This document shows positions 3,284 to 48,932 of a DNA stretch of 48,932 nucleotides, piece by piece. The first letter of the stretch is position 1. The number at the start of each line of letters is the position of its first letter. The stretch is taken from assembly GCA_016185105.1 (NCBI GenBank), contig JACPOE010000010.1, forward strand, positions 2,370-51,301, written 5' to 3'. Both the position numbers and the translations under genes were made by a program. Source of the stretch: Bdellovibrio sp. Its GTDB lineage: Bacteria; Bdellovibrionota; UBA1018. The notes beneath the pieces were generated by a model. It ran no database searches. It was given only the letters and a program-made list of their open reading frames with translations, and was not told the DNA's origin.

Positions 3284-3381
3284 TATTTGCTCCAAATTTT
3301 TAAAATTGTTAGAACTTGAGCCATTTCAAAACTTGCGCATCTTGTCAAACAGAAACGGCCCCAAATCTAAGAATCTGTACT

Positions 3382-3387
3382 TATAAT
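3382..3387 (+). promoter_or_regulatory. Candidate sigma70 -10 box (TATAAT) 6 nt before the LMF start codon
   Basis: TATAAT-gataag-ATG with no SD, the geometry of a leaderless transcript. Confidence 0.4.
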
Positions 3388-3393
3388 GATAAG

Positions 3394-30100: not shown

Positions 30101-30160
30101 CCGTCCAGAGACAAGTTTGATCTTATAATGGTGATTTTGACTCTGTCCTTCAGAGCCCAT
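27134..30160 (-). CDS. Large membrane-anchored TPR-repeat protein
   Basis: N-terminal GYF_2-like segment (GRVLGPIDL..GEW), Pro/Glu-rich linker, one TM (IAVGVALAGLAYVFLV), then many TPR-like repeats. Confidence 0.8.
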   Translation of the reverse strand: MGSEGQSQNHHYKIKLVSGRVLGPIDLDRVKLLILKNQVTGAETARRHPDGEWLGINQIPEIAELLVAKITGALKKEDVPASVNPFGATTLLEGDLLPGAAPLDLGVLGTIPLALEEELPPAPPAPPPPDPSPTQQEDVGEKTQMGTSLTATSTQEEDRTRVASEEDLKGEAQQAEQEPAVDLAGEPVRNLSHESTVIFQRSTESVKLPGKRKKSVKDYAKEIAVGVALAGLAYVFLVQTEPPSSAVVRREAIRPKLPTFEQGRADPSESMRLYGEGVKLYLQDTVEGYENAAEKFRKAASRDNTNVKALAMLASSYINLIDSSNKDENYFVVLSKLIDLSRAKQLDLPETVIADVEFYLVVNKADAALSRLEEYTLVHQPFGIELFYYLALAKYAKDDAVAAAQAINNFPESKAFSAKVFFLRGLIAEKLNDFESAMLEYQKALKFNARHAKSRLRVATLLSRKGQLKEAANHIDFLITNSGLLAPRDLGLAYYLHAQLSELYQKWDIALGDIERASKLDPDNHDYLLEMYTLQARSGGSLETAQKQARMYYFLGEGERLIGQGRYQEALSPLLQARQANDSSPLPLLKIGDMFAELYDVENAKKNYKMAAERAPNNILVWSKYIRTLIQSYEWEEATKAMDRFRKLPVAQSSIDKAAADLYQKQGKYAEAQTFYRKAMARESIDSDVYSAYAKSLMATKNFKDAPFFFALSLRFDPLNISTLIDIAKCVAETESIDRAISSLQDQLSRRANARAEFLAAIAELYMQKGAWGEAQNYVDQAIKANPVYAYSWKLQAQIYMNSENTDKTALTKALSAYKSYSERNPSDPIGYLERYKIFVKKAEFENGKDELNRIYEIYPKYPNLHYYMGALYSVQGNHKVAAEEHKKELQNNPDSPQTLLAYGKELLELERPQEALAQFTKVMQINPASAEAKQNAGWANYYLRNFQAALSLIRSAIAIDKGNPILFRRLGTVYRDMGDAQSACVAFRNYLAMEPDAPDKGDFQNCL

Positions 30161-31699: not shown

Positions 31700-31724
31700 G
31701 TTTCGACTTCCTTCCTAACAGGAT

Positions 31725-35292: not shown

Positions 35293-35295
35293 TTT

Positions 35296-35604
35296 CTACT
35301 CCCTCAAAATCTGAATTTCGTCGGTATCCACACTTCGAAGCGTTCGAAACATGGCAATTACCAAGCCCAAGCCAACCGCAGATTCAGCTGCTGCCACGGT
35401 AATGATAAAAAACACCGACATCTGCCCACCCAGATGGTTGAGCTGTTTGGAAAAAGTAACAAAGGTCAAGTTGACTGCGTTGAGCATGAGCTCAATACTC
35501 ATCAAGATGACGAGAATGTTTCGTCGAATCAAAACACCGGTAAATCCGATGAAAAAGATAATCGAACAAAACGATAAGACTACCCAAGGTTCAATCTGGT
35601 GCAT
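35296..35604 (-). CDS. nuoK: NADH-quinone oxidoreductase subunit K
   Basis: RRNILVILMSIELMLNA and VAAAESAVGL. Confidence 0.96.
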   Translation of the reverse strand: MHQIEPWVVLSFCSIIFFIGFTGVLIRRNILVILMSIELMLNAVNLTFVTFSKQLNHLGGQMSVFFIITVAAAESAVGLGLVIAMFRTLRSVDTDEIQILRE

Positions 35605-35607
35605 TCT

Positions 35608-36144
35608 CTAAACCCTCCCGCCCACAAGCTTACGCTTGGCGATGGCAACTGCTCCCACGATTGCTGCCAGCAAGAGGATCGAAGTCAGCTCGAAGGGAAG
35701 TATATATTCTGAAAACATCAGCTCGGAAATCACTTGCGTGTTTCCGCCAGCTGCCTCGATTTTCTCAAGAGTAAATTCGCCGCCTATAGAATGAAAACTG
35801 CTTTCCTTGAAAGCCCACACAAAAATCCCAAGCAATACGAGAGCCGAGAAGCCAGCAGAGACTCTCATCAAAAAGTGAGATCTTCCCAAATCAAAAGAGG
35901 GGACGTCTGCATTTAAAAGCATAATCACAAAAACAAACAAGACCATGATCGCCCCGGTATAGACAAATACCTGAAGCGCTGCGATCAAGTGCGCATCCAA
36001 AAGGGCATAGATTCCAGCAAAAGCAAAAAACACCAAGACAAGACTAAAGGCGCTCGTAACAGGATTTTTTTTCAAGATCACCATGGTAGAGCAAGCGATC
36101 GCTAGCCCAGCAAATAAATAAAAGAAGAATGGAGAGATATCCAT
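35608..36144 (-). CDS. nuoJ: NADH-quinone oxidoreductase subunit J
   Basis: KNPVTSA, QVFVYTGAIMVLFVFVIMLL and PFELTSILLL. Confidence 0.95.
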   Translation of the reverse strand: MDISPFFFYLFAGLAIACSTMVILKKNPVTSAFSLVLVFFAFAGIYALLDAHLIAALQVFVYTGAIMVLFVFVIMLLNADVPSFDLGRSHFLMRVSAGFSALVLLGIFVWAFKESSFHSIGGEFTLEKIEAAGGNTQVISELMFSEYILPFELTSILLLAAIVGAVAIAKRKLVGGRV

Positions 36145-36146
36145 GT

Positions 36147-36590
36147 CTACTTACTTCCTCTCTGCTCGACCAGAAACGCTTTGTCATAGACTTCTCTATG
36201 GGTCGTGCTCATCTCATAAATCGTACTTAACTTGATTGCATCCTTAGGACAGGCCTCTTCACACATCCCACAAAAGCAACAGCGTAGAACGTCGATCTCA
36301 AACTTCACCGGATACTTTTCCTTATCGGCTCTTTCGCCTGCCTCAATGTGGATGCACTCAGCGGGACAAACCGTGGGACAGAGCATACACGCAGTACAAT
36401 TTTCCACACCATTTGTGGCCTTAATGTAATGCATTCCCCGGAATCGTTCTGAATAGTTACGCCTCTGCTCCGGATACTGAATTGTGACTTTCGGAGCAAA
36501 AAGCATGTTCTTAATCGTAATGAAAAGCCCCTTGAGAATCTCGATTAGGTAAATCTCCTGAAGGGGGTTTTTCTTTTTTTTCACCAACAT
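36147..36590 (-). CDS. nuoI: NADH-quinone oxidoreductase subunit I
   Basis: Two [4Fe-4S] motifs CTACMLCPTVCP and CCFCGMCEEACP; TIQYPE. Confidence 0.95.
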   Translation of the reverse strand: MLVKKKKNPLQEIYLIEILKGLFITIKNMLFAPKVTIQYPEQRRNYSERFRGMHYIKATNGVENCTACMLCPTVCPAECIHIEAGERADKEKYPVKFEIDVLRCCFCGMCEEACPKDAIKLSTIYEMSTTHREVYDKAFLVEQRGSK

Positions 36591-36593
36591 AGA

Positions 36594-37709
36594 TTAGATC
36601 CACCCATAGTAAGCAAAAGTTCCGGTCAGCAAGATATTCACCATAGCGAGTGGGAACATCACCTTCCAACCTAAATCCATAAGCTGGTCATAGCGGAAGC
36701 GCGGCAAGGTCCATCGCACCCAGACGAAGAACCACATGAAAAATCCGACCTTAAGGAAAAAGGACAGAACTTCAAAACCGACCCTTGCCCATTCAGCCGA
36801 CATTCCAGCGAGACCAAATTGACTTTGAAGAAGACCCAAAAGAGGCCCAAAACCTGGCAATAACTGCCATCCACCAAAGTAGAGGGTAGTAATCAAACCC
36901 GAGGCTGTAAACATGTTCAGGTATTCTGCCATCATAAACATGGCAAACTTCATTGATCCATACTCGAGGTGATAACCAGCAACGATTTCCGATTCGCCTT
37001 CAGGTAGATCGAAGGGAAGTCGATTCGTCTCAGCAAACGCCGCCACTAGAAAAACCAAGAACCCAAGGGGTTGAATAAAAACACCCCATTTTGGAATCTG
37101 AAGCCACTCTGGCAAAAGCCATGGACCGAGGTGGGTCATGAGCTGGCCCTGTTGAGTTGCAATGTCTCCAAGCTTTAGCGTCGAAAAGACCAGGATAATA
37201 CCAATCACTGAGAGACCCATTGAAAGCTCGTAGCTAATCATTTGAGACGAGCTTCTGAGACTCCCCAAGATTGTATACTTATTATTTGATGACCATCCGG
37301 CCATGATAATTCCGTAAACACCCAGAGACGCGACAGAAAACACATAGAGCAGCCCCACATTCAGATCTGCCACCTGAAAATGCAAAACACGACCATCCAA
37401 ATTAATCGAGCTTGCAAAGGGGATTACACCGAATGTCATGAAAGCGGGCACTACAGAAACAAGTGGAGCCAACATGTAGTAGAATGGCTCAACATGTCCT
37501 GGAATCGGATCTTCCTTAAAGATAAATTTAATTGCATCGGCAATTGACTGAAAAAGTCCTAATGGACCGATTCGATTGGGGCCGAGGCGGTTTTGCATCA
37601 GAGCAGAACCTCTGCGCTCCACCCACGCCATAATCGGCACGACTTGGAGCAGAATAATAACCAAAAAAGCACTCTTTGCGGCCGTAGTTATCCAATCAAA
37701 GGTGTCCAT
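36594..37709 (-). CDS. nuoH: NADH-quinone oxidoreductase subunit H
   Basis: ERR..QNRLGPNR, QMISYE, AETNRLPFDLPEGESE and PRFRYDQLM. Confidence 0.96.
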   Translation of the reverse strand: MDTFDWITTAAKSAFLVIILLQVVPIMAWVERRGSALMQNRLGPNRIGPLGLFQSIADAIKFIFKEDPIPGHVEPFYYMLAPLVSVVPAFMTFGVIPFASSINLDGRVLHFQVADLNVGLLYVFSVASLGVYGIIMAGWSSNNKYTILGSLRSSSQMISYELSMGLSVIGIILVFSTLKLGDIATQQGQLMTHLGPWLLPEWLQIPKWGVFIQPLGFLVFLVAAFAETNRLPFDLPEGESEIVAGYHLEYGSMKFAMFMMAEYLNMFTASGLITTLYFGGWQLLPGFGPLLGLLQSQFGLAGMSAEWARVGFEVLSFFLKVGFFMWFFVWVRWTLPRFRYDQLMDLGWKVMFPLAMVNILLTGTFAYYGWI

Positions 37710-37710
37710 A

Positions 37711-39129
37711 TCAAGCGGCTCCCACGGCTTTTTGGTTTATCCACATCATTAGTACCTCAGGAAGGAGCTTGCTCTGCCCTGGAGGGGTAATCGCACGGGC
37801 CACTTTCTGTTCATGGCCAGCAAAATTCACGACCGTCCCATCCTTTTCAGCAAAGGAAGCGCCCGGAAGAATGACCGAAAAATCCTTGGCATGCTCTTTT
37901 TGAAACACACCGATTCCAATTGCACGCAACCCGTTCAAAGCAGGAACCACGGCCCTGCCTCCTCGAATCACCAGAGCAACCTCGCAACCAGCAGGTGCCT
38001 TTTCAAAAGGTTTGAAACCCAGGCTCTCCATTCCATGGAGATTGGCTGTTTTGCTTTTCCTTTTCAGAATCTTGTCTGCATCTGCGTCCGACTTAGAGTC
38101 AGACACCCCAGGGGTTCCAAAATGAAAAACCTGGGCGTTAGGCAAGTGCTTAGGGAAAAACTCCTTCAAGAGCTTCCCTTCCTCTTGGGTCAGATCAGAC
38201 CCTAGAAGTACAAGGGCTTTCTTCCCTGCCATCAATTTACGGGCTTGATCCAAGCCCGAGGCCCATTCAACTGAGTTCAAATGACCAGCTTCTACCAGGA
38301 CGGGATCCGTGATCCGACTTTCATCATTTACATAATGAAAATTGAATCTCCCTTCATCGCAAATCCAGTATTTGTTAATCGCTAGATTTTCTCTGGGTGT
38401 GCACCGTTGTATGACCCCAGCGTCGTGATGGAGATCAATATTACATCCCCTTGAGCATCCTTCACAAACTGTTGCAGTCTTGGTTAAGAACCAGACTCTC
38501 TTTTTGAATCGGAAGTCATGAAGCGTAAGTGAACCGGTAGGACAGATATCTGCGTAGTTCCCAGCATAGTCAGTTTCAAGCGCTCGACCGTCTGAAGTCG
38601 TGATCTCGGTATTATTTCCTCGCTGAACCGCCACCATTTCTCGGATCCCAGCGATCTCATCTCCGAAACGAATACACCGTGTACAATGAATGCAACGGTT
38701 CATATTTTTTTTGATCACAGGACCCATATCTAGGTCCATATAGGTGCGTCGTTCCTCCGTGTAGCGGGAGTAGGCGTCCCCAAAACCAAAGGAATTATCC
38801 TGGAGATCGCACTCTCCAGCCTTGTCGCAGATCGGACAGTCCAATGGGTGATTAATAAGGAGAAACTCCATGGTCGCTTTTTGAGCCTGTAAAACCCGAT
38901 CAGACTTAGTCTTGATAACCATTCCTTCGGTAGGTACGGTGGAACAAGCTGTCTGCAATTTCGGCATTTTCTCAATTTCTACAGCACACATTCGGCATTG
39001 AGCCACGACAGATAAGCCTGGGTGATAACAAAAGAAAGGGATTGAAATCCCGACTTCTTTGGCCACCTCAATAATATTTTTGCCGGGGGTAAATTCAACC
39101 TCCCGACCATCAATTATGCATTTGGGCAT
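37711..39129 (-). CDS. nuoG: NADH-quinone oxidoreductase subunit G (short form)
   Basis: [39 protein letters not shown] and [12 protein letters not shown]. Confidence 0.92.
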
Positions 39130-40391
39130 TTCCCACCTCGGATATGAGCTTCAAAATCAGCTCTAAATTTTTTTACAAAACTAGTCACTGGGCCAGCCGC
39201 AGCATCCCCTAACGCACACAGAGTCTTGCCATTGATATTATCTGCCACTTCGAGAAGCAGATTCAGATCTTGTTCTCTTCCATGACCATCTTCGATCCGG
39301 TGTAAAATGTCCTCCATCCACCGACATCCTTCTCGACAAGGCGTACACTGCCCACAGGATTCGTGAGCATAAAACTTGGTAATCCTTTTCAGAAGCCGCA
39401 CAACGCAGGTACCTTCATGGACTACCATCACGCCAGCAGATCCCAACATGGTCCCAATTTTCATCATCGGTTCGATATCTACAACCACATCGATCTCATC
39501 CGCTGTCAGAACAGGAGCCGAAGATCCACCCGGAATCACGGCCTTAAGCTTTCTATCGTCTAAAATTCCGTGACAGTGATCGTAAATCAGCTGTCTCAAT
39601 GTAACTCCACCCGCTGGCAACTCGTATAGACCTGGCTTTTTAACATGGCCAGAGACACCAAAGAGACGGGTACCACCTGACTTCTCGAGCTTGCCCAACT
39701 TGGCAAACCAATCGCCCCCTTTATTAACAATGAAAGGGATGGCAGCCAAGGTCTCCACATTGTTCACGATGGTTGGCCCACCAAACGCACCGGCTTGGGC
39801 AGGGAAGGGAGGCTTCACACGGGGTTCTCCCCGCTTCCCTTCTAAGGAATTCAAGAGCCCTGTCTCTTCACCACAGATATAAGCACCAGCGCCCCGATGA
39901 ACCGTCAAATCAAAGTTAAAGCCACTTCCGAGAATATTTTTTCCAAGATAACCGTTCTCGTAGGCCTCATCAATTGCCTGTTGAAGAAGCTTTGCCTCTC
40001 GGGTGTATTCTCCCCGAATGTAGATATAGCCGACATGTGCACCAATCGCATAGGCACCAATCACCATACCCTCAATCAATAAATGAGGGGTATACCGCAT
40101 GATATCGCGGTCCTTGAAGGTTCCAGGCTCGGACTCGTCGGCGTTGCAAACTAAGTATTTTGGTTTTGCGGATTGCTTTGGGATAAAGCCCCATTTTACA
40201 CCAGTGGGAAACCCAGCCCCACCGCGGCCCCGCAGATTCGACTTTTTCACTTCGGAAATAATGTCGTCGACCGACATACCCAGCGCTTTTTTAGCAGCCG
40301 AGTACCCTGACATTTGTTTCAAATAGTAATCAAGGGGACGGGCTTTTTCATTGAAGTGTTGAATAAACAGCGTCTCATTTTGGTTTTGCAT
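39114..40391 (-). CDS. nuoF: NADH-quinone oxidoreductase subunit F
   Basis: [33 protein letters not shown] and [12 protein letters not shown]. Confidence 0.97.
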
Positions 40392-40394
40392 TCT

Positions 40395-40868
40395 CTACTC
40401 CAACCCATCCAAAAGCTGGTCCAATTTTCCCGCACTCAGGTTTTCATGATAGTCATTGTTCAACATCATCGCTGGGGCGGTACCGCAAGCACCAAGACAC
40501 TCTTCTTCCATTAAGGTGAATTTCTGGTCTTTAGTAGTTTCGCCACACTTGATGCCGAGCTTTTTCTCACAATGCTCGACCAGCTCATCGGCACCCCTCA
40601 AACAACAAGCCACGTTAGTGCAAATTTTGAGGTGGTACTTTCCAACCGGATTCAAGTTGTACATGGTGTAAAAGGAGGCAACCTCTCGCACCTGGGCAGG
40701 ATGGATCCCGATATAATCGGCGATTTCCTGCAAAACTTCAGGCGGCAACCAAGTCATTTCATCTTGGGCCGCATGAAGAGCAGGAAGAAGAAGTGCCACC
40801 TTCGAAGGATATCGTGGCTCCAACTTCGCCATCTCACTATAAAATTTCTTTGATAGAATCTTTGCCAT
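40395..40868 (-). CDS. nuoE: NADH-quinone oxidoreductase subunit E
   Basis: VASFYTMY, CTNVAC and ECLGAC. Confidence 0.96.
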   Translation of the reverse strand: MAKILSKKFYSEMAKLEPRYPSKVALLLPALHAAQDEMTWLPPEVLQEIADYIGIHPAQVREVASFYTMYNLNPVGKYHLKICTNVACCLRGADELVEHCEKKLGIKCGETTKDQKFTLMEEECLGACGTAPAMMLNNDYHENLSAGKLDQLLDGLE

Positions 40869-40883
40869 ATCAAAAACTCTCTT

Positions 40884-42131
40884 TTACCGGTCTAACTCGC
40901 CAGCAATGATATTGATGCTACCTAACGCGGCGACCATGTCCGCTATTTTCTCACCTTGAACCATCGTAGACAGGCTCTGGTAATGCCAAAAGGAGGGGCC
41001 TCGAATTCTCATTCGATGAGAACGCGGAGACCCTTTGCTGACAATGTAGAACCCGAGTTCTCCGTTGGCAGCTTCAAACTGTGTGTAGGCTTCGCCTTCC
41101 GGAACAGAAAACCCTGTCATAAAAAACTTGAAGTGATGAATCAGGCCTTCCATTGTGTTGTAAACAACATCTTTGTCTGGAATTCGAACTCGCTTGTCTT
41201 CAGACCAGATCGGACCTTTTTTTATTTTATCTGCAATCTGACTCAAGATATTTAGGGACTGCCGAATTTCCGCAATCCGAATTAAATATCGATCGAAAAC
41301 ATCTCCGTTTTGCGAAACAGGCACATCAAATTCAACATCTTTATAGAACATGCAAGGCTGGTCACGTCTCAAATCCAAGTCAATACCTGCAGCCCTTGCA
41401 TTTGGGCCACTGTGGCTAAATTTCAAGCACTGCTCTTTATTAAAGACACCGACGCCGACGGTCCTTTTTTTCCAGATCTTGTTGCCCGTCAAAAGAGAAT
41501 CCATTTCGTCGATCACTTTTCGGGTCTTTGCGACCCAGGCCTTTAACTCACTCTCAAACCCTTCGGGCGCATCCCCCGCTAGGCCGCCGATTCTCGTGTA
41601 GGAGGTGGTTAGTCGTGCTCCAGAAAGCTTTTCAATCAAAGTATAAGCTTCTTCTCGCTGATGAAACCCATAGAGGAAAAAAGAAAAGGCACCCAAATCA
41701 ACCGCATTGATCCCAATACAGATGAGATGATCAATCACTCGAGCAAGTTCACAGCAGATCATTCGAATCCAAACGCAACGCTCGGGAACCTCGACTCCGA
41801 GCAACCGCTCCACGGACATCGAATAAACAACGTTATTAATAAGAGCCGAACAGTAATTCAGGCGGTCCGTATAAACGATAAAGTTGTGGTAAGTCCGATT
41901 TTCCCCCAATTTTTCTTTAGCTCGGTGAGTATAACCGTACTCACAATAAGATTTTTCTATGGTCTCACCATTGAGCTTTGCGACCATTCGAAGAGCGCCG
42001 TGCATCGCAGGATGAGTAGGTCCGATATTGACAATAATTCTTGAGTCGCCCCATAGATCGTCCGGATCGTGCTCAATCGAGTAACTCTCAGGCAGACCTT
42101 TGTTCAGCTTGTCAGTCGTTGAGTTTTGCAT
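40884..42131 (-). CDS. nuoD: NADH-quinone oxidoreductase subunit D
   Basis: NIGPTHPAMHG, DRLNY and C-terminal GELDR. Confidence 0.96.
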   Translation of the reverse strand: MQNSTTDKLNKGLPESYSIEHDPDDLWGDSRIIVNIGPTHPAMHGALRMVAKLNGETIEKSYCEYGYTHRAKEKLGENRTYHNFIVYTDRLNYCSALINNVVYSMSVERLLGVEVPERCVWIRMICCELARVIDHLICIGINAVDLGAFSFFLYGFHQREEAYTLIEKLSGARLTTSYTRIGGLAGDAPEGFESELKAWVAKTRKVIDEMDSLLTGNKIWKKRTVGVGVFNKEQCLKFSHSGPNARAAGIDLDLRRDQPCMFYKDVEFDVPVSQNGDVFDRYLIRIAEIRQSLNILSQIADKIKKGPIWSEDKRVRIPDKDVVYNTMEGLIHHFKFFMTGFSVPEGEAYTQFEAANGELGFYIVSKGSPRSHRMRIRGPSFWHYQSLSTMVQGEKIADMVAALGSINIIAGELDR

Positions 42132-42139
42132 ATTTCTTC

Positions 42140-42706
42140 CTAATCCAGCAGAGTCGGATCAACAGGTTCTGCATCAGCAAACACCTGGTAACCTTTTAGA
42201 GGGTAGTCTTTGCGCAAAGGATGTCCCACCCAACGAATATCCATTAAAATTCTTCGAAGGTCCGGGTGTCCTCTGAATTTAACCCCAAACATGTCATAAA
42301 CTTCCCTCTCCGCCCAGTTCGCTCCTTCCCAAACTGAAATCGCTGTTGGGACTTCATCTCCATCGGCTACTCGAACTTTCACCCGAATTCGGCAAAGCGA
42401 AGAATGAGAAAAAAGGTTGTAGACCACTTCGAATCGTGGCTCTTTCTGTTCGTCCGTGGCAGTCAAATCCGCCAAGAACCCATAATCCATTTTTGAGTCT
42501 GTTTTGAGATAATTTAGGACAGGTACAATCTCGTCCTTGCGAACATAAACAATCGGAACATCTGTTGGGTAATCGGGAGGCATTCTGACCTCCTCAATTG
42601 CCTTTCCGAATTGTGCTTTCAAGGCCTCAATCTGGGTTTTCCAAAGGTCGCCAAATTTAGGCAACCAATAACCACCATTCGTTGCAATAGGCTTTCGTAC
42701 GTCCAT
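42140..42706 (-). CDS. nuoC: NADH-quinone oxidoreductase subunit C
   Basis: ANWAEREVYDMFG, HPDLRRIL and GHPLRKDYP. Confidence 0.96.
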   Translation of the reverse strand: MDVRKPIATNGGYWLPKFGDLWKTQIEALKAQFGKAIEEVRMPPDYPTDVPIVYVRKDEIVPVLNYLKTDSKMDYGFLADLTATDEQKEPRFEVVYNLFSHSSLCRIRVKVRVADGDEVPTAISVWEGANWAEREVYDMFGVKFRGHPDLRRILMDIRWVGHPLRKDYPLKGYQVFADAEPVDPTLLD

Positions 42707-42724
42707 TTTTTTCTCTTTCAGTCC

Positions 42725-43249
42725 CTACAGACTTGTCGTTCGCAAAACTTTTCCCGAGTTTCGCTTCGCAGCTAATGCTCTTTGAGAATGGGTCTCTCCC
42801 TTGGCTACCATGTCTTGCAATCTCAAAAGCGCATGAAGTACACCCTCAGGAGCAGGGGGGCAACCCGGCACATAGACGTCTACCGGAATCATTGTGTCGA
42901 TCCCTTGAAGAACACTGTAAACATTGAAAATTCCACCAGAAGACGCACATGCCCCAAAAGACATCACGAATTTCGGATCACTCATCTGGTCATAGACCGT
43001 CTTAAGCACTGGAGCCATCTTGAGGTTGATAATGCCTGCCACAATCAAAAGGTCGCTCTGACGGGGAGAAAAACGGACAACCTCAGCGCCAAACCTCGAC
43101 ATATCGTAATCAGAACAAAGTGTGGCCATCATCTCAATCCCACAGCAACTAGTTCCAAACGGAAGAGGCCAAATCGCATTCTTACGACCCCAATTAACGA
43201 TCGTATCCAGTCTCGTTGTAAGAAAACCTACGGAACCGTCTTTACTCAT
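42725..43249 (-). CDS. nuoB: NADH-quinone oxidoreductase subunit B
   Basis: [21 protein letters not shown] and VPGCPP. Confidence 0.97.
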
Positions 43250-43270
43250 GATTTTTTATTTCCATAAAAT

Positions 43271-43630
43271 TTATTCCCACTCTAAAGCGCCTTTGCCCAG
43301 AACATAAAAATAACCAACTAAAAGAATCAAGGCAAAGAAACCCATCTCAATCAAGATGAAAGCGTTTATTGTGAGATATTTTTTATAAACTACTGCCCAG
43401 GGATAGAAAAAGATGGCTTCAACATCAAAAAGAAGAAAAAGGATCGCTACCAGATAAAATCGAACCGAGAAGCGATGCCTGGCTGACCCATAGCCGGGAA
43501 CCCCGCACTCAAAGGGCATGTTTTTTTTCTTGTTTTGAATTCCGGACCCAAGAAGAGTGGTCAGCAACAGAATTGCTCCACCGACCGTCAGACCCACCAT
43601 CATTAATATAAGTACCGGGATATAAGACAT
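43271..43630 (-). CDS. nuoA: NADH-quinone oxidoreductase subunit A
   Basis: PFECG, FYLVAILFLLFDVE and KGALEWE. Confidence 0.97.
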   Translation of the reverse strand: MSYIPVLILMMVGLTVGGAILLLTTLLGSGIQNKKKNMPFECGVPGYGSARHRFSVRFYLVAILFLLFDVEAIFFYPWAVVYKKYLTINAFILIEMGFFALILLVGYFYVLGKGALEWE

Positions 43631-43663
43631 GATACTTTTTATAGCCCGGTGCCGACGCAGGTG

Positions 43664-45142
43664 CTACCAGAAAATAAAGCCTAAGGATTGCCCCGCCCAA
43701 TTAAATAGAAACTCTGCAAACACTCCGGCCAAGACCATTGGAACAAGAAGTGTCGCTAACAAAACTTTTCTTGCAGGCGACCGCCTACTCCCCAAAACCG
43801 CAAATTCTTTGAGATCCCCAAAATCTCCAATCAGCCTATAAACCAAACGGGCCACGGCAGCAGAGGAGACCACCATTGAAAACACCCCAGCTATCGCTAG
43901 AAAGGATCTTTCATGGCGAATAGCTGCTCCGATCAAACTAAATTTTGCAATAAACCCAGGAGTCGGTGGACTGCCGACTAGACAAAAAAGAAAAATCACC
44001 AAACAAATGCACTCAGGTACAGCACCCCGCATCGCTCCCCGAAGCCGATCCAATTGATCCGCTTGAAGCTGGTCGATCAAGAAGGACAGAACATAGAAGA
44101 TTCCAACCAGCGAAAAAAGCTGAATCACTAACGAATACAGAAGCGCTGCAATTCCGACTTCATCTAGAACTAGCAGGCCAATCAAAAGAAAACCTGATTC
44201 GGCCACAACAAGGTAGCTCACCAACCGTTTTGCACGATTCTGCCGAAATGCGAGTAATGAGCCAATCCCCATCGAAAGCCCTGCAACGACAGAAAGCATC
44301 TTGGTCCAATCAAATTGTCCAAGTATTTCCCAATGTCCGGCAGAAGAAGCAGGTTGAGTGAATACAGCAACCAAGACCCGAGTCATAAACGCAAAGCCAG
44401 CAGCCCTTGGCCCAAGAGATAGGAACGCAGAAACAGGAGTCGGTGCGCCCTCTAAAACATCGGGCACCACCATGTACGCAGGGAATGCGCCAATTTGATA
44501 GGAGAGAGAAACAAGGAGAAGCACGAAAACAACCAGCAACACTTGAGGATCCAACGGCTTAGTCAAAAGAACTTTGTGGATTTCGTAAATATTTAAGGAA
44601 TGGGTAGTGGCAAACAAAATTGCGGCCGCATAGAGAAATAACGCTGCTGCAACTGCCCCAAAGGCCATCGATTTTACTGCGGCCTCAGTGGACAGAATTG
44701 ATTTTTTTCCATAGGCAGCCAAAAAATGACTAATCACATTCAAAAGCAGAAGGGATAGAAAAGCGAGAGCAAGATCGGCTACAGAAGCAATCAAGCACAT
44801 TGCTAGAGTCGAGGCTAGAATCAGAGCACAGTACTCGGAACGTCTTGCCTCTGCGATTTCTTTAGAATGCGAGACGGTAGCGATGGCAAACGATGCCAGG
44901 ACGATAAAAAAGAGCTTAAAAAAAAGTGAAAACCCGTCTATCGAAAGAGCTCCACCAAAAATTTGGGCAGCGCCATGTTCATAGGAAATCAGGGTTTGAA
45001 TAAAAGCGCCCCCTAATCCAAGTAGCGCCGTCGCCGTGATCAGCCTGACTTGTTCTCCGTAGTAGGTGATCTCACCGGCAATAACAAAAGCCAGAGTGAG
45101 CGCTAAGAAAATTTCGGGTGTGATCAGTAGAAATTCTTTCAT
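43664..45142 (-). CDS. Divergent NuoN paralog (NuoN') lacking the TM5 Glu and TM7 Lys
   Basis: PEI, STEAAVK, PDVLEGAPTPVSAFLS and PPTPGFIAKF align with NuoN. Confidence 0.88.
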   Translation of the reverse strand: MKEFLLITPEIFLALTLAFVIAGEITYYGEQVRLITATALLGLGGAFIQTLISYEHGAAQIFGGALSIDGFSLFFKLFFIVLASFAIATVSHSKEIAEARRSEYCALILASTLAMCLIASVADLALAFLSLLLLNVISHFLAAYGKKSILSTEAAVKSMAFGAVAAALFLYAAAILFATTHSLNIYEIHKVLLTKPLDPQVLLVVFVLLLVSLSYQIGAFPAYMVVPDVLEGAPTPVSAFLSLGPRAAGFAFMTRVLVAVFTQPASSAGHWEILGQFDWTKMLSVVAGLSMGIGSLLAFRQNRAKRLVSYLVVAESGFLLIGLLVLDEVGIAALLYSLVIQLFSLVGIFYVLSFLIDQLQADQLDRLRGAMRGAVPECICLVIFLFCLVGSPPTPGFIAKFSLIGAAIRHERSFLAIAGVFSMVVSSAAVARLVYRLIGDFGDLKEFAVLGSRRSPARKVLLATLLVPMVLAGVFAEFLFNWAGQSLGFIFW

Positions 45143-45145
45143 TTT

Positions 45146-46645
45146 TCACCTAACGGTTGAAAGGAGCGTCAAGACAGTCGGTCGGATGAGTTCGATCAGT
45201 GGTTTTGGATACAACCCGAAAAAAAGAAGCCCACAGACAACAGGGGCCATATAAAACCGTTCTCTTAAGGTAAGATCTTGAAACCCTTGCACAGCAGATC
45301 CAGGGCTTCCCAAAAAAACGTTCCTATACATATTAAAGAGATAGTATGAGGCTAAAAGCAAAGCGCCCCCTGACATGAAAAGGGTAAAGGGATGAACCGA
45401 GAAACTTCCAATCACAACCAAGGAGTGCCCTACAAACCCGCCAAAACCAGGAAAACCCAAAAGGGAAACAATCACAACGCCTGCGACGACTGAAACCGCA
45501 GGAGCACGAACCGCAATCCCTCCGAGAGTTCTTTGTCCTTGGGCATTTAGAAAATCCGATCGCCCGGTGCGGTCAGAGATAATACCTGAAAAAAGCCCAA
45601 AACCGGCAAGTGCCAAGCCTAAAATAAGCTGCTGAAACACTGAGCCCACAACCCCAGTTGCATTCAACGAACCAATCCCCATCATTACAATACCAACCTC
45701 ACTCAAACAAACGTAGGCCAGAAGAGAACGAAGGTTTCGCTGAGACAGCGCGCACACGCCACCCATGATCAAGTTGACCGCCCCAACCGCCAAAACAATG
45801 CGCGAGGCCGTGCCCAAGACATCAGGAAATAAACAGTAACAAATCCTCAGAAAAATATAGGTGGCCACGGGTACTGTCGCGGCCGCGAGCGCCACAAAAA
45901 CAGTCGACGGACCTTCGGTTGCCATTTCGATAAACCAGCCGTGAAGCGGCCAAACGGGAGCCCTGAGAGCCAGCCCGAAACTGATTAAAGTAAAAGCGAC
46001 CCATGAAACCTGAAAGTCATAGCCTAAAAAGTGAAAGTGTTGGCCCGCAAATTTTCCACCTGACAATTCACGAATTGAAAACCCATGCGGATCGATTGAG
46101 TAATAAACAATAATGAGAGCAATAAAAATGAGTGCGTTCCCCACCGTCGCGGCGACCGTGGAACGAAAGGCCGCTTTTTCTCGGCCTTCTCCACCCCAGA
46201 TTCCAACGAGAAAATAGAAAGGTAACGCACTTAAGCCCCAAAAAAAGAGCTGTAAGAACAAGTCCTGAGCGCAAACAGCGCCACTGAGTGCAGTCTGCAA
46301 AACCAGAAGAAGACTATGAAGCCCTCTTACCCCCACCTGCTGATTCCACTCGGCAGAAATAAGAACAGGAAAGAGAATCGCGATCAAAAGCACTAGAAGC
46401 GCATTTAAGCCATCGACTGCCATTTCATAACTAATCGCGTAGGCTCCCACCCACGGGAAGCTTTCGATCGCCTGCATCTCGGCAGTTTGAGTCTGCATTG
46501 AGGCTACTAAAATTACAGCACATGCGCTTGCAGCAAGACTCGCTATCAATGCGATCCAACGACTTCTCGGAACGGGCACGAAAGCTTGAGAAATCGCACC
46601 AATTAGCGGGAATAAAACGGTCAAACTGATCAAATGGTTATTCAA
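45146..46645 (-). CDS. Divergent NuoM paralog (NuoM') with altered charged axis residues
   Basis: AVDGLN, GIWGGEGR, PVWPLHGW, LGFPGFGGFVG, DLTLRE and FGLYPKPL align with NuoM; TTG start after GAGGG. Confidence 0.88.
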   Translation of the reverse strand: MNNHLISLTVLFPLIGAISQAFVPVPRSRWIALIASLAASACAVILVASMQTQTAEMQAIESFPWVGAYAISYEMAVDGLNALLVLLIAILFPVLISAEWNQQVGVRGLHSLLLVLQTALSGAVCAQDLFLQLFFWGLSALPFYFLVGIWGGEGREKAAFRSTVAATVGNALIFIALIIVYYSIDPHGFSIRELSGGKFAGQHFHFLGYDFQVSWVAFTLISFGLALRAPVWPLHGWFIEMATEGPSTVFVALAAATVPVATYIFLRICYCLFPDVLGTASRIVLAVGAVNLIMGGVCALSQRNLRSLLAYVCLSEVGIVMMGIGSLNATGVVGSVFQQLILGLALAGFGLFSGIISDRTGRSDFLNAQGQRTLGGIAVRAPAVSVVAGVVIVSLLGFPGFGGFVGHSLVVIGSFSVHPFTLFMSGGALLLASYYLFNMYRNVFLGSPGSAVQGFQDLTLRERFYMAPVVCGLLFFGLYPKPLIELIRPTVLTLLSTVR

Positions 46646-46724
46646 AGGACCCTCTGTCTTAAATTATTTTTGAGTTCGATTCCAAATTTTGCAGCACCCA
46701 TCTCGCACCCTGTTTATAGAACAG

Positions 46725-48659
46725 CTATAATTTTATATAATGAGCCAGCAATGCAAACCCGGAAGAAATCACGAAAAAAAGATAAAGTCGTAAATCTCCT
46801 GTTTGAACCAACTGTAAGGCTTTACCAGGAACTTCAATGACCTTACGCACCGAAGTTCCGATTCCATCTGAAATCGCCGCATCTACGCCTCTAAATAGAG
46901 ACGAGACCCTTTCAAGAAAATAGGTAATCCCAGCGGGAACCCACTCTGACCAGATCCTTCCATCAATCACTCTGGATGCTGACCTACCCACCCAAGCTAA
47001 AGTTTGAACAAATTTTTTATAAAAGAGGTCCATCTGAAAGCCTTGGGCGACGAAACTTGAAACCCGAGGAAAAACCTGCGCGATCCTGGTCCACTTGTCT
47101 TCTTTCCTTCCAGAAGTCCAATAAGCGGTGAGTAAAGAAATAAGCAGGACCCCCCAGTAGAAACTCGAGGCTGACCAACTCTCAGGCGAATCCTTGAAGT
47201 CCATACCTGGAGCGCCAAAGACTCCTTCCAATAGGGATGGGAGAACCCGATCAATCGAACCAAAGACAGCTCCCCCTGTGCAGGTCCCTGTCCAGAGCAC
47301 TGCTAATGAAAGGATAAGCCAAAGAACGGATGACAAAATCACCATCCAAGAAGAATTCGATGCAGAAGTAAGTTTAGAAATGCGCCAAGCAATACACCAA
47401 CCCAAAAGACCAAAGAAAAACAGCAAGAATAAGAAAAAGGTCACCTGAACGGGTGAATCAATGGCTTTTGCAACCCAGGGCAAGCTCCCTGAGAGGGTTA
47501 AAAAACCGATAAAACCCGTGCCACTAGCCGCAGCAGTGAAAGAAAGCCCCTTTAACCAAAAAGCTCGCGTCCTTGCTACAGCATTAGAGGTTGTGGGTTT
47601 TTCCTCTAAGGCACTCCCTAAATTCCCCTGGGCAAGCGCACTGAGGCTCATTCCCAGCAGAAAAGCAAACGCCGGCGTACGCCCAGTAAAAGCTAAGATA
47701 GTGAGGGCAAGCGATAAGCCTCCAACTGTCCAGAGTCCAAGAGCAATGCGCCAGTTTCTTTGAAACAACCCAGATAAAAAGGCTAATAGCGCGGCACAGG
47801 CAGCAAGCCAGCCCAACCCGGGGAAAAGCCCTAATGCGCGGAATTGATGTTCCAAACGAATTAGCAAAACAAAGAGCGCCCACGACGGAAAAAGTTGATT
47901 CAACAAAATCCGCTGGGTTGGACTCTGTTTAGACTCTGCAACCACCCAGCCCAGAACAGGAAACAGATGCGCTTGCAAAAAAAACCCAGCAAAAACCAGC
48001 GCTAGTCCCAAGGCACCCGTAAACGAACTCTCTTCTTTCCAAACTGATGTCTCGTTCAAAAAAAGATTGAGTTGCCCGGTCACCAAAACACAAGCACCAA
48101 AAAAAGTAAGCAGAAGACCAAATGAGTTTTCCCAAAAGAACCGTGCAGTGACTTTCGCCTCAGCGTCATTTTCCCAAAAAGCAGCAAAGGACAAACCGCC
48201 CCCAACCACCGTCAGAGCTAAACCAACAAAGAGAAGCCAGGGGGTTAAGGCCAAACTAACCACACCCATGCCAGCCATCGAAATCGCCAGTGCTCCTAGA
48301 GAACGCTCTGAATGAGCATGTTTGAAGACGGAAGTATTTAGGAGGAGTCCCGCTGCAACCAGTGCAGCAATCAAAAACAGGACTAAGCCAAAAAGGTCCT
48401 GAAAAACACCGACCGTGAGGGCATTGGCGTCCGTCTTAGGGAGAATCCATCCTGAGGACCAAACCTTACTATGAAACTCTTCTCGTAAGAACAGCCCGGA
48501 CTCCAAACCAACCCCAAGCAAAGCTAAGAGTACCCCAACCCACAGAAGCCATACCCCCCTAGCTGGAAGGCGATTTCCAAAAGCAAAGATCAAAACCCCG
48601 ATCATTAAATAAATGAATGAGAACCAAAAAAGAAGGGTAGGGGAGTTCAGTGTAATCAT
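46725..48659 (-). CDS. Highly divergent NuoL paralog (NuoL') lacking the charged axis residues
   Basis: 644 aa polytopic protein between K' and M'. GFQMDLFY..IDGRI..VQTGDLRLY matches the NuoL lateral-helix C-terminus (KWYIDEIY..IDRIV..IQTGSLQVY). Confidence 0.8.
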   Translation of the reverse strand: MITLNSPTLLFWFSFIYLMIGVLIFAFGNRLPARGVWLLWVGVLLALLGVGLESGLFLREEFHSKVWSSGWILPKTDANALTVGVFQDLFGLVLFLIAALVAAGLLLNTSVFKHAHSERSLGALAISMAGMGVVSLALTPWLLFVGLALTVVGGGLSFAAFWENDAEAKVTARFFWENSFGLLLTFFGACVLVTGQLNLFLNETSVWKEESSFTGALGLALVFAGFFLQAHLFPVLGWVVAESKQSPTQRILLNQLFPSWALFVLLIRLEHQFRALGLFPGLGWLAACAALLAFLSGLFQRNWRIALGLWTVGGLSLALTILAFTGRTPAFAFLLGMSLSALAQGNLGSALEEKPTTSNAVARTRAFWLKGLSFTAAASGTGFIGFLTLSGSLPWVAKAIDSPVQVTFFLFLLFFFGLLGWCIAWRISKLTSASNSSWMVILSSVLWLILSLAVLWTGTCTGGAVFGSIDRVLPSLLEGVFGAPGMDFKDSPESWSASSFYWGVLLISLLTAYWTSGRKEDKWTRIAQVFPRVSSFVAQGFQMDLFYKKFVQTLAWVGRSASRVIDGRIWSEWVPAGITYFLERVSSLFRGVDAAISDGIGTSVRKVIEVPGKALQLVQTGDLRLYLFFVISSGFALLAHYIKL

Positions 48660-48932
48660 TGTTTCAGTGCCTGAAGTTCATCCATTGAAATTTTTCTCTT
48701 AAGAAAAAACATTCTAATCGCTAACGAGTACCCTACAACAAGCTGAGCGATCCCTGCCAAAGTAATAAATAGACCTAAGATATGTCCCTGAATCCGAAGG
48801 CCTGATTGGATTCCCGCCATCACGAAGATCATTGTGGACCCTAAAACCAGCAGTTGTACTCCAATCAAAAGCCCAAGAAGGGTTTTTCGGGAAACCATAC
48901 AGACCAACCCCATTCCGCCAATCAATCCTGCT
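48656..48932 (-). CDS. Divergent NuoK paralog (NuoK'), 5'-partial at the window edge
   Basis: RKTLLGLLIGVQLL..GHILGLFITLAGIAQLVVG..MDELQALKQ aligns without gaps to NuoK; the frame is open to the edge; 4-nt overlap with NuoL'. Confidence 0.85.
   Translation of the reverse strand, partial: AGLIGGMGLVCMVSRKTLLGLLIGVQLLVLGSTMIFVMAGIQSGLRIQGHILGLFITLAGIAQLVVGYSLAIRMFFLKRKISMDELQALKQ

What the first reader, a model, noticed from the sequence alone, without database searches (positions are those of the whole stretch)
43664..48932. Second complex I membrane arm (NuoK'L'M'N') with the proton-pumping charge axis largely removed
Seen, by aligning each paralog by eye with the canonical copy in this window. 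NuoL': WE>LA, NRIGD>NSFGL, GKSAQ>LQAHL, LIH>LLN, the FHVITHAFFK segment has no His/Lys, and SKD>GSL. NuoM': FWE>FWG, IKVP>LRAP, LLKMG>TVPVA, NHG>ILG, VGEF>VGHS. NuoN': LELMS>LLLLN, FKVA>YQIG, LKAA>PRAA, with only the TM12 Lys kept. NuoK': both Glu>Gln. No stops or frameshifts; L'/M'/N' are 644/499/492 aa and the K-L-M-N order is kept. Established: these correspond to E. coli NuoL E144/K229/K399, NuoM E144/K234/K265/E407, NuoN E133/K217/K247 and NuoK E36/E72, the central charged axis for proton translocation, whose TM5 Glu/TM7 Lys are also conserved in MrpA/D. Inference: a maintained non-pumping pseudo-arm acting as an uncoupled alternative module, an assembly scaffold or placeholder, or a repurposed membrane complex. 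I know of no described system like this, but I could not search for one.
Basis: partly seen in the sequence, partly recalled or inferred. Interest (0 to 1): 0.92.

Follow-up and report, generated by a model that had tools for sequence, protein, structure and literature searches.

The report
Complex I paralogue without pumping residues
These genes are the end of a complete second, 11-subunit copy of respiratory complex I, conserved in one group of Bdellovibrionota, that keeps its iron-sulfur sites but has lost the residues needed to bind quinone and pump protons, so it probably does something other than ordinary energy conservation.

Summary
K'L'M'N' are the last four genes of a full nuoA'B'C'D'H'I'J'K'L'M'N' operon with no E, F or G. 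It runs off the window and sits 33 nt upstream of the canonical 14-gene nuo operon, on the same strand.

Profile alignments to solved structures and family tables (41-54 sequences per subunit) show the loss:
- The Glu/Lys/His axis of L', M', N', K' is gone, with only N' TM12 Lys kept. Replacements are conserved: Glu to Gln, Lys to Arg or Gln.
- The E-channel acids of H' and A' are gone.
- The quinone ligands of D' (Thermus H38, Y87, D139) are Pro, Pro, Ala.

All 4 N2 and 8 N6a/N6b cysteines are kept. Two other extra nuo cluster types in the phylum keep nearly every checked residue.

The cluster and its position are conserved in 55 of 56 fetched Bdellovibrionota loci. dN/dS is 0-0.17, like the canonical genes. 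L' has no Pfam match but models as NuoL, lateral helix included.

Best reading: an assembled complex I derivative, probably redox-active, that cannot pump by the canonical mechanism. Its function is unknown. I found no description in print.

The parts
43664..45142 (-). nuoN' (492 aa), last gene of the second operon
   Evidence: PF00361 8.3e-34; best NCBIfam is NuoN. In 53 family sequences: TM5 Glu is Gln 36, Leu 15, Phe 2; TM7 Lys is Gln 37; TM8 Lys is Arg 47; TM12 Lys is kept as Lys 42, Arg 9.
45146..46645 (-). nuoM' (499 aa, TTG start)
   Evidence: PF00361 2.6e-37; TIGR01972 NuoM 325 bits. Against E. coli NuoM 7p61_M: E144, K265 and E407 lost, K234 is Arg. In 54 sequences: Glu 0 of 54; Arg 54 of 54; Pro 51 of 54 at the TM8 Lys; TM12 Glu is His 28, Gln 10 and others.
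46725..48659 (-). nuoL' (644 aa), very divergent NuoL with lateral helix
   Evidence: No Pfam or NCBIfam match. The profile hits NdhF 6hum_F at 1.1e-10. AF2 pLDDT 83.4, with a 76-residue helix at 543-618 followed by a last TM helix. Foldseek top hits are NuoL/NdhF chains at TM 0.65-0.76. In 47 sequences none has Glu, Asp, Lys or His at the nine checked axis positions, apart from one Arg at the second TM11 His.
48656..48932 (-). nuoK' (99 aa in all; its first 8 codons lie beyond the window end and hold 6 N)
   Evidence: PF00420 3.7e-8. Both TM Glu are Gln: 36 of 41 and 32 of 41.

Upstream on contig C17, outside the window:
- J' 51321-51851
- I' 51848-52387
- H' 52381-53481
- D' 53478-54623
- C' 54620-55129
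- B' 55095-55568
- A' 55571-56005
- then divergent mfd
43631..43663 (-). 33-nt spacer between nuoN' and canonical nuoA
   Evidence: No promoter-like or terminator-like site in the spacer. Co-transcription is inferred, not shown.
30194..43630 (-). canonical nuoABCDEFGHIJKLMN, used as internal reference
   Evidence: ORFs. L, M, N and K have strong Pfam and NCBIfam scores. All checked key residues are present.

Best explanation
Shown: the four genes are the distal end of a complete second complex I operon, nuoA'B'C'D'H'I'J'K'L'M'N', with no N-module genes. It is fixed directly upstream of the canonical nuoA-N operon in one order-level group of Bdellovibrionota and is under strong purifying selection.

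Shown: it keeps the cysteines for clusters N2, N6a and N6b and the NuoL architecture with its lateral helix. It has replaced three sets of residues:
- the quinone headgroup ligands of NuoD;
- the acidic residues of the NuoH/A/K E-channel;
- nearly the whole Lys/Glu/His axis of NuoL, M and N. The replacements are mostly conserved, non-titratable or always-charged residues (Gln, Arg, Pro, Gly, Ala).

Inferred: the 11 proteins assemble into an L-shaped complex that can still hold, and probably pass, electrons along N6a-N6b-N2. This complex cannot couple that chemistry to proton translocation by the canonical mechanism, and it does not reduce quinone at the canonical site.

Inferred: it is therefore a complex I derivative turned to a task that does not conserve energy. 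The likeliest task is electron transfer from a soluble donor, or from the single NuoEFG module encoded downstream, to a membrane acceptor that needs no protonation. Donor and acceptor are unknown.
For: - Whole operon: Pfam on the upstream ORFs gives NuoJ, a 2x[4Fe-4S] protein, NuoH, NuoD, NuoC, NuoB and a weak NuoA.
- Synteny: primed cluster followed by canonical nuoA on the same strand in 16 of 16 loci and in 55 of 56 loci. mfd lies divergently upstream of A' in every locus that reaches that far, so there is no extra partner gene.
- Selection: NG86 dN/dS of primed genes is 0-0.10 (L036/L037), 0.005-0.17 (L050/L052) and 0.05-0.15 (L075/L081). Canonical genes give 0-0.10.
- Lost residues: for K', L', M', N'. 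In H', E161, E227, R230, E237, E239 and E249 are lost and E262 is Arg in 38 of 46. In A', D69, E71 and E95 are lost. In D', H38 is Pro in 38 of 43, Y87 is Pro in 38 of 43 and D139 is Ala in 27 of 43, with a deletion of about 20 residues.
- Kept: the 4 N2 Cys in 40 of 40 B' and the 8 Cys in 49 of 49 I'.
- Controls: two other extra nuo cluster types in the phylum keep nearly all checked residues. AHJKLMN clusters keep all but A E95 and M E127; the intact 11-gene clusters keep all but 1-3 axis positions and M E127.
- L' fold.
- Passages of PMC4758237 name Y87, H38 and D139 as the signatures of quinone reactivity.
Against: - No expression or protein data: no RNA holder was listed.
- Some buried charges are kept or newly fixed, so a different ion or proton path is not excluded. 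Examples are N' TM12 Lys (42 of 53), M' Arg228 (54 of 54), N' Arg255 (47 of 53), J' Glu53 (45 of 46), N' Glu10/24/30/377 and H' Asp/Glu at position 241.
- With the quinone ligands gone, no acceptor can be named. With no E, F or G of its own and no neighbour gene, no donor can be named.
- The own genome (82% complete) shows no POR/KOR (PF01855) and no Rnf (PF02508), so a ferredoxin link has no support there.
- In 2 genomes the D' match holds an in-frame stop: G022 TAA and G035 TAG. In G035 the gene is split into two ORFs.
- Fe-S ligands can be kept for stability alone.
Confidence: 0.55

Rival explanations
1. Purely structural pseudo-complex. The primed complex does no redox chemistry. Its Fe-S clusters are kept for folding only, and it serves as a scaffold or partner for the canonical complex I made from the same gene string, or for other respiratory complexes.
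For: - Strict adjacency to the canonical operon in 55 of 56 loci, with a spacer free of promoter or terminator consensus.
- Loss of every catalytic residue checked in the Q site and the coupling path.
- No donor or acceptor gene in the cluster.
Against: All 12 cluster cysteines are invariant in 40 and 49 sequences, and B' and I' are among the best conserved primed proteins (58-80% and 50-72% identity to the window's copies). That fits a working electron wire better. No association between the two complexes was tested successfully.
Confidence: 0.2
2. It still pumps or conducts ions, using a different set of residues from the canonical axis.
For: - New invariant charges: J' Glu53, N' Glu10, Glu24, Glu30, Arg33 and Glu377, H' Arg at position 262, M' Arg228, N' Arg255.
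- The replacements are polar (Gln) rather than hydrophobic at many sites, which could keep a hydrated path.
Against: L' has no titratable residue at any of the nine checked positions in 47 sequences, apart from one Arg. M' has Gly/Ala/Ser and Pro at two of them. Arg and Gln do not shuttle protons. The E-channel and the Q-site trigger residues are lost as well.
Confidence: 0.12
3. A member of a described relative of complex I (Mrp antiporter, group 4 [NiFe] hydrogenase such as Mbh, Ech or Hyf, Mbx/MBS, Ehr, or DAB), not a complex I derivative.
For: D' lacks the quinone ligands, as Mbx-type and 'ancestral' Nuo large subunits do according to passages of PMC4758237. D' is 381 aa, near MbhL's length (6cfw_L, 380 aa).
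Against: - Gene order is exactly nuoABCDHIJKLMN.
- D' scores 8.3e-100 against Thermus Nqo4, against 1.6e-62 for MbhL and 8.4e-77 for MbsL.
- M', N', H' and L' all score best against Nuo/Ndh chains.
- There is no Cys at Thermus positions 86 and 403, the vestigial Ni-Fe ligand positions named in PMC4758237.
- No MrpB/E/F/G-like or DabA-like genes are in the cluster.
Confidence: 0.05
4. A decaying duplicate or an assembly artefact.
For: L' is so divergent that Pfam misses it. The genome is a fragmented, 82% complete assembly. Two D' genes carry a stop.
Against: There are open full-length frames in more than 50 independent assemblies at 25-70% identity. dN/dS is 0-0.17, and many columns are invariant.
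Confidence: 0.02

Closest known systems
Canonical bacterial complex I (NuoA-N; E. coli, Thermus thermophilus)
   Same: Same 11 core subunits in the same gene order. Same Fe-S ligands for N2, N6a and N6b. NuoL fold with lateral helix.
   Different: No NuoEFG of its own. Thermus Nqo4 H38, Y87 and D139 are replaced. The E-channel and antiporter-axis residues are replaced. About 20 residues of NuoD are deleted.
11-subunit complex I forms (cyanobacterial and plastid NDH-1, Nuo11 of Chlorobi and others), some of which take electrons from ferredoxin
   Same: Subunit set without an N-module. N', H' and L' profiles score best against NdhB, NdhA and NdhF chains.
   Different: Those complexes keep the quinone ligands and the pumping axis. 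So do the intact 11-gene clusters found here in same-family genomes, apart from 1-3 axis positions each (L100-L102). No NdhS/O/V-type ferredoxin-docking genes are nearby.
Second membrane-arm clusters nuoAHJKLMN (other Bdellovibrionota, noted in PMC13147790; the search listing also shows the term in Streptomyces and other genome papers)
   Same: An extra nuo-type cluster, in some genomes directly upstream of another nuo cluster (L090, L095).
   Different: Seven genes only, closer to the canonical genes, and all 21 checked K/L/M/N axis residues are kept. The primed cluster has 11 genes and forms its own long-stemmed clade in an M-subunit tree (SH-aLRT 99).
Mbx/MBS and Ehr complexes (complex I relatives whose NuoD-like subunit has lost its catalytic ligands; the Ehr definition is recalled from Marreiros et al. 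2013 and named in passages of PMC4758237)
   Same: A NuoD-like subunit with neither Ni-Fe cysteines nor quinone ligands, next to a NuoB-like subunit with its cluster.
   Different: As far as I recall, those complexes keep functional antiporter-like subunits and have other gene orders. The primed proteins are much closer to Nuo than to Mbh or Mbs.
Laboratory point mutants of E. coli complex I (Glu to Gln, Lys to Arg or Ala at NuoK, L, M, N axis positions; recalled, not read here)
   Same: The same kinds of substitution at the same positions.
   Different: Here they are natural, combined across seven subunits, and conserved by selection.

Membership tests
Respiratory complex I / NDH-1 superfamily (homology) | Homologues of the 11 core subunits A, B, C, D, H, I, J, K, L, M, N encoded together | tested here: met
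   Pfam hits for 9 of 11 above cut-off. A' is weak (0.0064). L' is supported only by profile and fold. The order ABCDHIJKLMN holds in 16 of 16 loci.
Respiratory complex I / NDH-1 superfamily (homology) | Cysteine ligands of clusters N2 (NuoB) and N6a/N6b (NuoI) | tested here: met
   4 of 4 Cys in 40 of 40 B'; 8 of 8 Cys in 49 of 49 I'.
Respiratory complex I as a quinone reductase | Quinone headgroup ligands of NuoD (Thermus Nqo4 Y87, H38, with D139) | tested here: not met
   Pro 38 of 43, Pro 38 of 43, Ala 27 of 43. Intact in the canonical D and in L100-L102.
Respiratory complex I as a proton pump | TM5 Glu, TM7 Lys, TM8 Lys/His and TM12 Lys/Glu in NuoL, M and N, and the two Glu of NuoK | tested here: not met
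   Only N' TM12 Lys is kept. M' TM7 and N' TM8 Lys are Arg. The rest are Gln, Gly, Ala, Ser, Pro or Leu.
Respiratory complex I as a proton pump | Acidic E-channel residues of NuoH, NuoA and NuoJ | tested here: not met
   Most conserved Glu/Asp of H and A are replaced by hydrophobic or small residues. J' TM3 Tyr is Ser.
NuoL | 14-TM antiporter-like core plus long lateral helix and C-terminal anchor helix | tested here: met
   AF2 helix 543-618 plus helix 624-643. Full-length Foldseek matches to NuoL chains.
Group 4 [NiFe] hydrogenases (Mbh, Ech, Hyf, FHL) | Ni-Fe cysteine motifs in the large subunit | tested here: not met
   D' has Asp and Gly at Thermus positions 86 and 403, which PMC4758237 gives as the first and third ligand positions. 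MbhL scores far below Nqo4.
Mrp antiporter | MrpA and MrpD with MrpB, C, E, F, G, and no NuoB/C/D/H/I | tested here: not met
   The cluster holds B', C', D', H' and I'. M' and N' score higher on NuoM and NuoN models than on Mrp models.
DAB (DabB with DabA) | A single PF00361 protein paired with DabA | tested here: not met
   All 11 genes are Nuo homologues and the only neighbour is mfd.
Ehr complexes | Definition and gene content as in Marreiros et al. 2013 | not tested
   The paper was not read here and only a mention was seen. The nuo gene order and the Nqo4 score argue for a Nuo derivative.

The most novel reading that the evidence does not exclude
This would be a natural 'dead-pump' complex I. 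A complete, selected paralogue would have had both the quinone chemistry and the whole proton-coupling path neutralised on purpose, mostly with conservative swaps (Glu to Gln, Lys to Arg). It would be made together with the working enzyme from one 25-gene string and would have a new role: a non-energy-conserving electron conduit to a non-quinone acceptor, or a fixed partner of canonical complex I that shares its single NuoEFG module. That would be a new functional class within the complex I superfamily, and a natural control for models of coupling.
Probability: 0.4. Interest if true: 0.9.

Novelty: new variant of a known kind. Interest (0 to 1): 0.8.

Why it matters
How quinone reduction drives proton pumping over about 200 Å in complex I is still debated, and it is studied mainly with single point mutants. 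Here evolution has removed the trigger (the Q-site ligands), the transmission path (the E-channel) and the pumps (the L, M, N axis) together. It has kept the fold, the Fe-S wire and strong selection.

A structure of this complex would show what the architecture looks like without its charges. Its biochemistry would show what a complex I scaffold can be used for when it conserves no energy.

It also warns annotators. These genes are, or would be, named NADH-quinone oxidoreductase subunits, while L' is labelled 'hypothetical protein' in the ESM Atlas cluster. Metabolic reconstructions of this Bdellovibrionota group, which includes the magnetotactic FG-1 and FG-2 genomes of PMC13200544, would then count a pump that is probably not one.

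Tried and rejected
- **Expression.** The look-up of sequencing runs listed no RNA holder. Eight DNA runs were listed, only one holding most of the stretch, and it is probably the source sample.
- **Shared N-module.** Complex prediction of canonical NuoG (A8) with I' (A9) gave 'no answer', score 0.00. This is no evidence either way.
- **Ferredoxin link.** PF01855 and PF02508 were not found in the own genome, which is 82% complete. This does not show absence.
- **The search for homologous proteins** with the L' profile scored only 6 proteins, none named, and added nothing.
- **ESM Atlas.** The nearest cluster is unnamed and from Bdellovibrionota. Two unnamed clusters of about 560 aa, labelled mostly Pseudomonadota, scored 0.96 and were not followed up.
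- **D' model**. The stretches around the former Q-site ligands have low confidence and no coordinates can be inspected, so no cavity analysis was done.
- **Origin of the primed cluster.** In a 28-row M-subunit tree it is one clade on a long stem, apart from both other Bdellovibrionota M clades. Without sequences from other phyla, no donor and no order of events can be stated.
- **Literature.** Eight searches found no description of this cluster.
  - PMC13147790 (passages read) describes a different cluster, nuoAHJKLMN, beside the 14-gene operon.
  - PMC13200544 (passages read) does not discuss nuo genes in its main text.
  - PMC4758237 (passages read) does not treat this clade.
  - Supplementary tables of these papers were closed and may list these genes.

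Rows dropped before the counts:
- locus L089, which is of another cluster type;
- proteins shorter than 0.8 or longer than 1.3 times the window's copy;
- proteins holding X;
- exact duplicates (16 loci are the same records as L018-L033).

Only the window's own canonical L, M and N were available as canonical references for those three subunits.

Full report
**What is in the window**

On the minus strand, 43664-48932 holds four open frames with no stops:
- N', 492 aa
- M', 499 aa, TTG start
- L', 644 aa
- the 3' part of K'

Thirty-three bases downstream of N' begins a canonical nuoABCDEFGHIJKLMN operon (43630 down to 30194). Pfam and NCBIfam place N' and M' in PF00361, nearest to the NuoN and NuoM models, and K' weakly in PF00420. 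L' matches nothing. The canonical L, M, N and K score two to three times higher on the same models.

**The finding is the tail of a whole second complex**

The window is contig C17:2370-51301 of a 1.69-Mb, 97-contig, 82% complete assembly. Past the window end, the same strand carries seven more genes after six N inside K'. Pfam gives:

| Gene | Pfam result |
|---|---|
| J' | PF00499 |
| I' | 4Fe-4S dicluster families |
| H' | PF00146, 6.3e-53 |
| D' | PF00346, 6.9e-70 |
| C' | PF00329 |
| B' | PF01058, 1.2e-27 |
| A' | PF00507, weak, 0.0064 |

A divergent mfd gene follows. So there are 25 nuo-type genes in a row: an 11-gene set without E, F or G, then the 14-gene set. The spacer between them shows no promoter-like or terminator-like site. 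Co-transcription is an inference.

**The substitutions are real**

- **M'.** A profile of 17 M' sequences aligned to E. coli NuoM (7p61_M) puts E144 opposite Gly/Ala/Ser, K234 opposite Arg, K265 opposite Val/Pro and E407 opposite a variable residue.
- **N'.** The N' profile against NdhB (6hum_B) gives TM5 Glu to Gln, TM7 Lys to Gln, TM8 Lys to Arg, and TM12 Lys kept.
- **L'.** The L' profile finds only three PDB sequences. The best is NdhF 6hum_F at 1.1e-10, over the full length and including the C-terminal lateral-helix region. It shows no Glu, Asp, Lys or His at the axis positions.
- **K'.** The canonical NuoK Glu38 and Glu74 align to Thermus Nqo11 E32 and E67. Both are Gln in K'.

I then collected primed and canonical proteins from 72 fetched loci and removed duplicates and fragments (see Tried and rejected). 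I tabulated every buried charged residue of the window's canonical copies.

| Subunit (n) | Canonical residue | Found in the primed family |
|---|---|---|
| L' (47) | TM5 Glu | Glu 0 of 47 |
| L' (47) | TM6 Asp | Leu, Phe, Ile |
| L' (47) | TM7 Lys | Gln 37 |
| L' (47) | TM8 His, two TM11 His, TM11 Lys, TM12 Lys-Asp | small or hydrophobic residues, apart from one Arg |
| M' (54) | TM5 Glu | Glu 0 of 54 |
| M' (54) | TM7 Lys | Arg 54 of 54 |
| M' (54) | TM8 Lys | Pro 51 of 54 |
| M' (54) | TM12 Glu | His 28, Gln 10, others |
| N' (53) | TM5 Glu | Gln 36, Leu 15, Phe 2 |
| N' (53) | TM7 Lys | Gln 37 |
| N' (53) | TM8 Lys | Arg 47 |
| N' (53) | TM12 Lys | Lys 42, Arg 9 |
| K' (41) | two TM Glu | Gln 36 and Gln 32 |

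**The loss reaches the rest of the coupling path and the active site**

- **H'** (46 sequences). The conserved acids of TM4-TM6 and of the TM5-6 loop are mostly hydrophobic or small, and one Glu is Arg in 38 of 46.
- **A'.** The TM2 Asp and Glu and the TM3 Glu are gone.
- **J'.** The TM3 Tyr is Ser.
- **D'.** Its profile scores 8.3e-100 against Thermus Nqo4. It puts Pro opposite H38, Pro opposite Y87 and Ala opposite D139, and lacks about 20 residues. In 43 sequences the counts are Pro 38, Pro 38 and Ala 27. Passages of PMC4758237 treat exactly these three residues as the marks of quinone reactivity.
- **Fe-S ligands.** By contrast, the four N2 cysteines are present in 40 of 40 B', and the eight cysteines of N6a and N6b in 49 of 49 I'.

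**Controls**

The phylum holds two other kinds of extra nuo cluster.
- A 7-gene AHJKLMN cluster occurs in other families. It is the one mentioned in PMC13147790.
- An intact 11-gene ABCDHIJKLMN cluster lies elsewhere in some same-family genomes.

With the same alignment method, the AHJKLMN clusters keep all 21 checked axis residues of K, L, M and N, and all checked H residues. They vary only at A E95 and M E127. The intact 11-gene clusters keep 18-20 of the 21 axis residues, the H and A residues and D's His, Tyr and Asp. Their exceptions are one NuoK Glu in L100, and the M TM7 Lys and N TM10 His in L101 and L102. So the loss is specific to the primed cluster, and the method does find the residues where they exist.

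**Conservation**

- L' alone finds full-length open orthologues (25-43% identity) in 22 of 24 other genomes of the family and in 6 of 16 genomes of other families of the order.
- All 16 fetched neighbourhoods show the order A'B'C'D'H'I'J'K'L'M'N' followed by canonical nuoA onward.
- A pattern scan of one genome per species returned 56 loci, with titles naming Bdellovibrionota, Oligoflexia or Bacteriovoracaceae MAGs.
  - Fifty-five of them show the primed genes followed by canonical nuoA on the same strand. The other, L089, is of the AHJKLMN type.
  - An L' frame of 631-650 aa sits just upstream of M' wherever the contig reaches that far.
- With the D' profile over 116 genomes of the order, canonical NuoD scores about 265-277 bits and primed D' 330-689 bits.
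  - Seventy of 74 other family genomes have a best match at E of 3e-97 or better.
  - None of 19 genomes of family f10 does.
- The L' profile against 1.84 billion cluster representatives finds 180 proteins at E of 1e-30 or better and only 492 at 1e-3 or better. The family is small, distinct and far from ordinary NuoL.
- The relatives include FG-1 and FG-2 (L049, L056), the magnetotactic Bdellovibrionota of PMC13200544.

**Selection**

Nei-Gojobori dN/dS was computed in the pairs whose dS is not saturated.

| Pair | Primed genes | Canonical genes |
|---|---|---|
| L036/L037 | 0-0.10 | 0-0.10 |
| L050/L052 | 0.005-0.17 (L' 0.105, M' 0.019, N' 0.049, K' 0.014) | 0.03-0.10 |
| L075/L081 | 0.05-0.15 | 0.01-0.08 |

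This is strong purifying selection. Against it, two D' matches carry an in-frame stop, in G022 and G035.

**Fold of L'**

The AlphaFold2 model built with the 17-row alignment has pLDDT 83.4 and pTM 0.82. It shows a 76-residue helix at 543-618 followed by a terminal TM helix. Its best 50 PDB matches are NuoL, NdhF, ND5 and MrpA chains. The best is E. coli NuoL, at TM 0.68-0.76 over the whole length. The lateral helix that ties the membrane arm together is kept.

**How it most likely works**

Shown:
- a complete set of core subunits;
- conserved cluster ligands and a conserved architecture;
- no canonical quinone ligands, no E-channel acids, and almost no titratable axis residues;
- strong selection and a fixed position before the canonical operon.

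Inferred: the proteins assemble into an L-shaped complex that can carry electrons to N2. That complex can neither protonate a quinone at the canonical site nor move protons by the canonical route.

The replacements are not random decay. Glu to Gln and Lys to Arg or Gln are the conservative, charge-fixing swaps and are themselves conserved. This suggests that the packing of the polar axis is kept while its proton chemistry is abolished.

I rate an electron-transferring, non-pumping derivative at 0.55. Its donor and acceptor are unknown. The only N-module in the gene string is the canonical NuoEFG.

| Reading | Confidence |
|---|---|
| Electron-transferring, non-pumping derivative | 0.55 |
| Purely structural partner | 0.20 |
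| Alternative ion path through the newly fixed charges (J' Glu53, N' Glu10/24/30/377, the Arg residues) | 0.12 |
| Another described family | 0.05 |
| Decay or artefact | 0.02 |

**Comparison with what is known, and novelty**

By homology it belongs to the complex I superfamily and derives from the Nuo/NDH-1 branch. As an enzyme it fails the tests for quinone reductase and for proton pump. It is none of the following:
- Mrp, because it has B', C', D', H' and I';
- a group 4 hydrogenase, because D' has no Ni-Fe cysteines and a much lower MbhL score;
- DAB;
- the AHJKLMN type.

Ehr could not be tested. I found no description in eight literature searches, and supplements were closed. I file it as a new variant of a known kind, of high interest to complex I specialists.

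Noticed in passing
window 15578-17852, minus strand: Leucyl-tRNA synthetase is split into two overlapping frames: 16956-17852 (298 aa, catalytic N-part plus the start of the editing domain) and 15578-17008 (476 aa, rest of the editing domain, catalytic C-part and anticodon domain). This is a frameshift or an assembly error.
   Followed up: partly
window 13528-15091, plus strand: An amino-acid permease frame of 386 aa (PF13520 covers only the first half of the model) is followed by an overlapping 155-aa frame. This may be a second frameshift.
   Followed up: no
window 37711-39129, minus strand: Canonical NuoG is only 472 aa here and 455-486 aa in 15 relatives. From recall this is much shorter than the roughly 780-900 aa of Thermus or E. 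coli NuoG, so the C-terminal domain seems absent in this clade.
   Followed up: partly
window 27134-30160, minus strand: A 1008-aa protein made of TPR repeats starts 33 nt after canonical nuoN on the same strand. It may be part of the same transcription unit. No homologue was found in the fetched flanks, which mostly end before nuoN.
   Followed up: partly
contig C17:51302-51307, just beyond the window end, inside nuoK': Six N interrupt codons 7-8 of K'. This is a scaffold gap or withheld bases. The frame continues on both sides.
   Followed up: yes
L100 (G008), L101 (G019 = FG-1 record), L102 (G003): Some genomes of the same family carry a third complex I cluster elsewhere in the genome. It is an 11-gene ABCDHIJKLMN set with quinone ligands intact and 18-20 of the 21 checked axis residues kept. 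The window's own genome shows only two NuoD matches.
   Followed up: partly
L090-L097, L099 (other Bdellovibrionota families): Seven-gene nuoAHJKLMN clusters with intact residues occur, in L090 and L095 directly upstream of another nuo cluster. This is the same relative position that the primed cluster occupies here.
   Followed up: partly
window 3316-4905, plus strand: A 529-aa protein matches both lipase maturation factor domains: PF06762 at 1.5e-56 and PF25179 at 5.4e-42. From recall, this family is best known from animals.
   Followed up: no
L019 / L042 (G005, 5-contig assembly): The canonical nuoB, nuoD and nuoF each appear as two adjacent frames in this record. These are probably indel errors of the assembly, not biology.
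   Followed up: no
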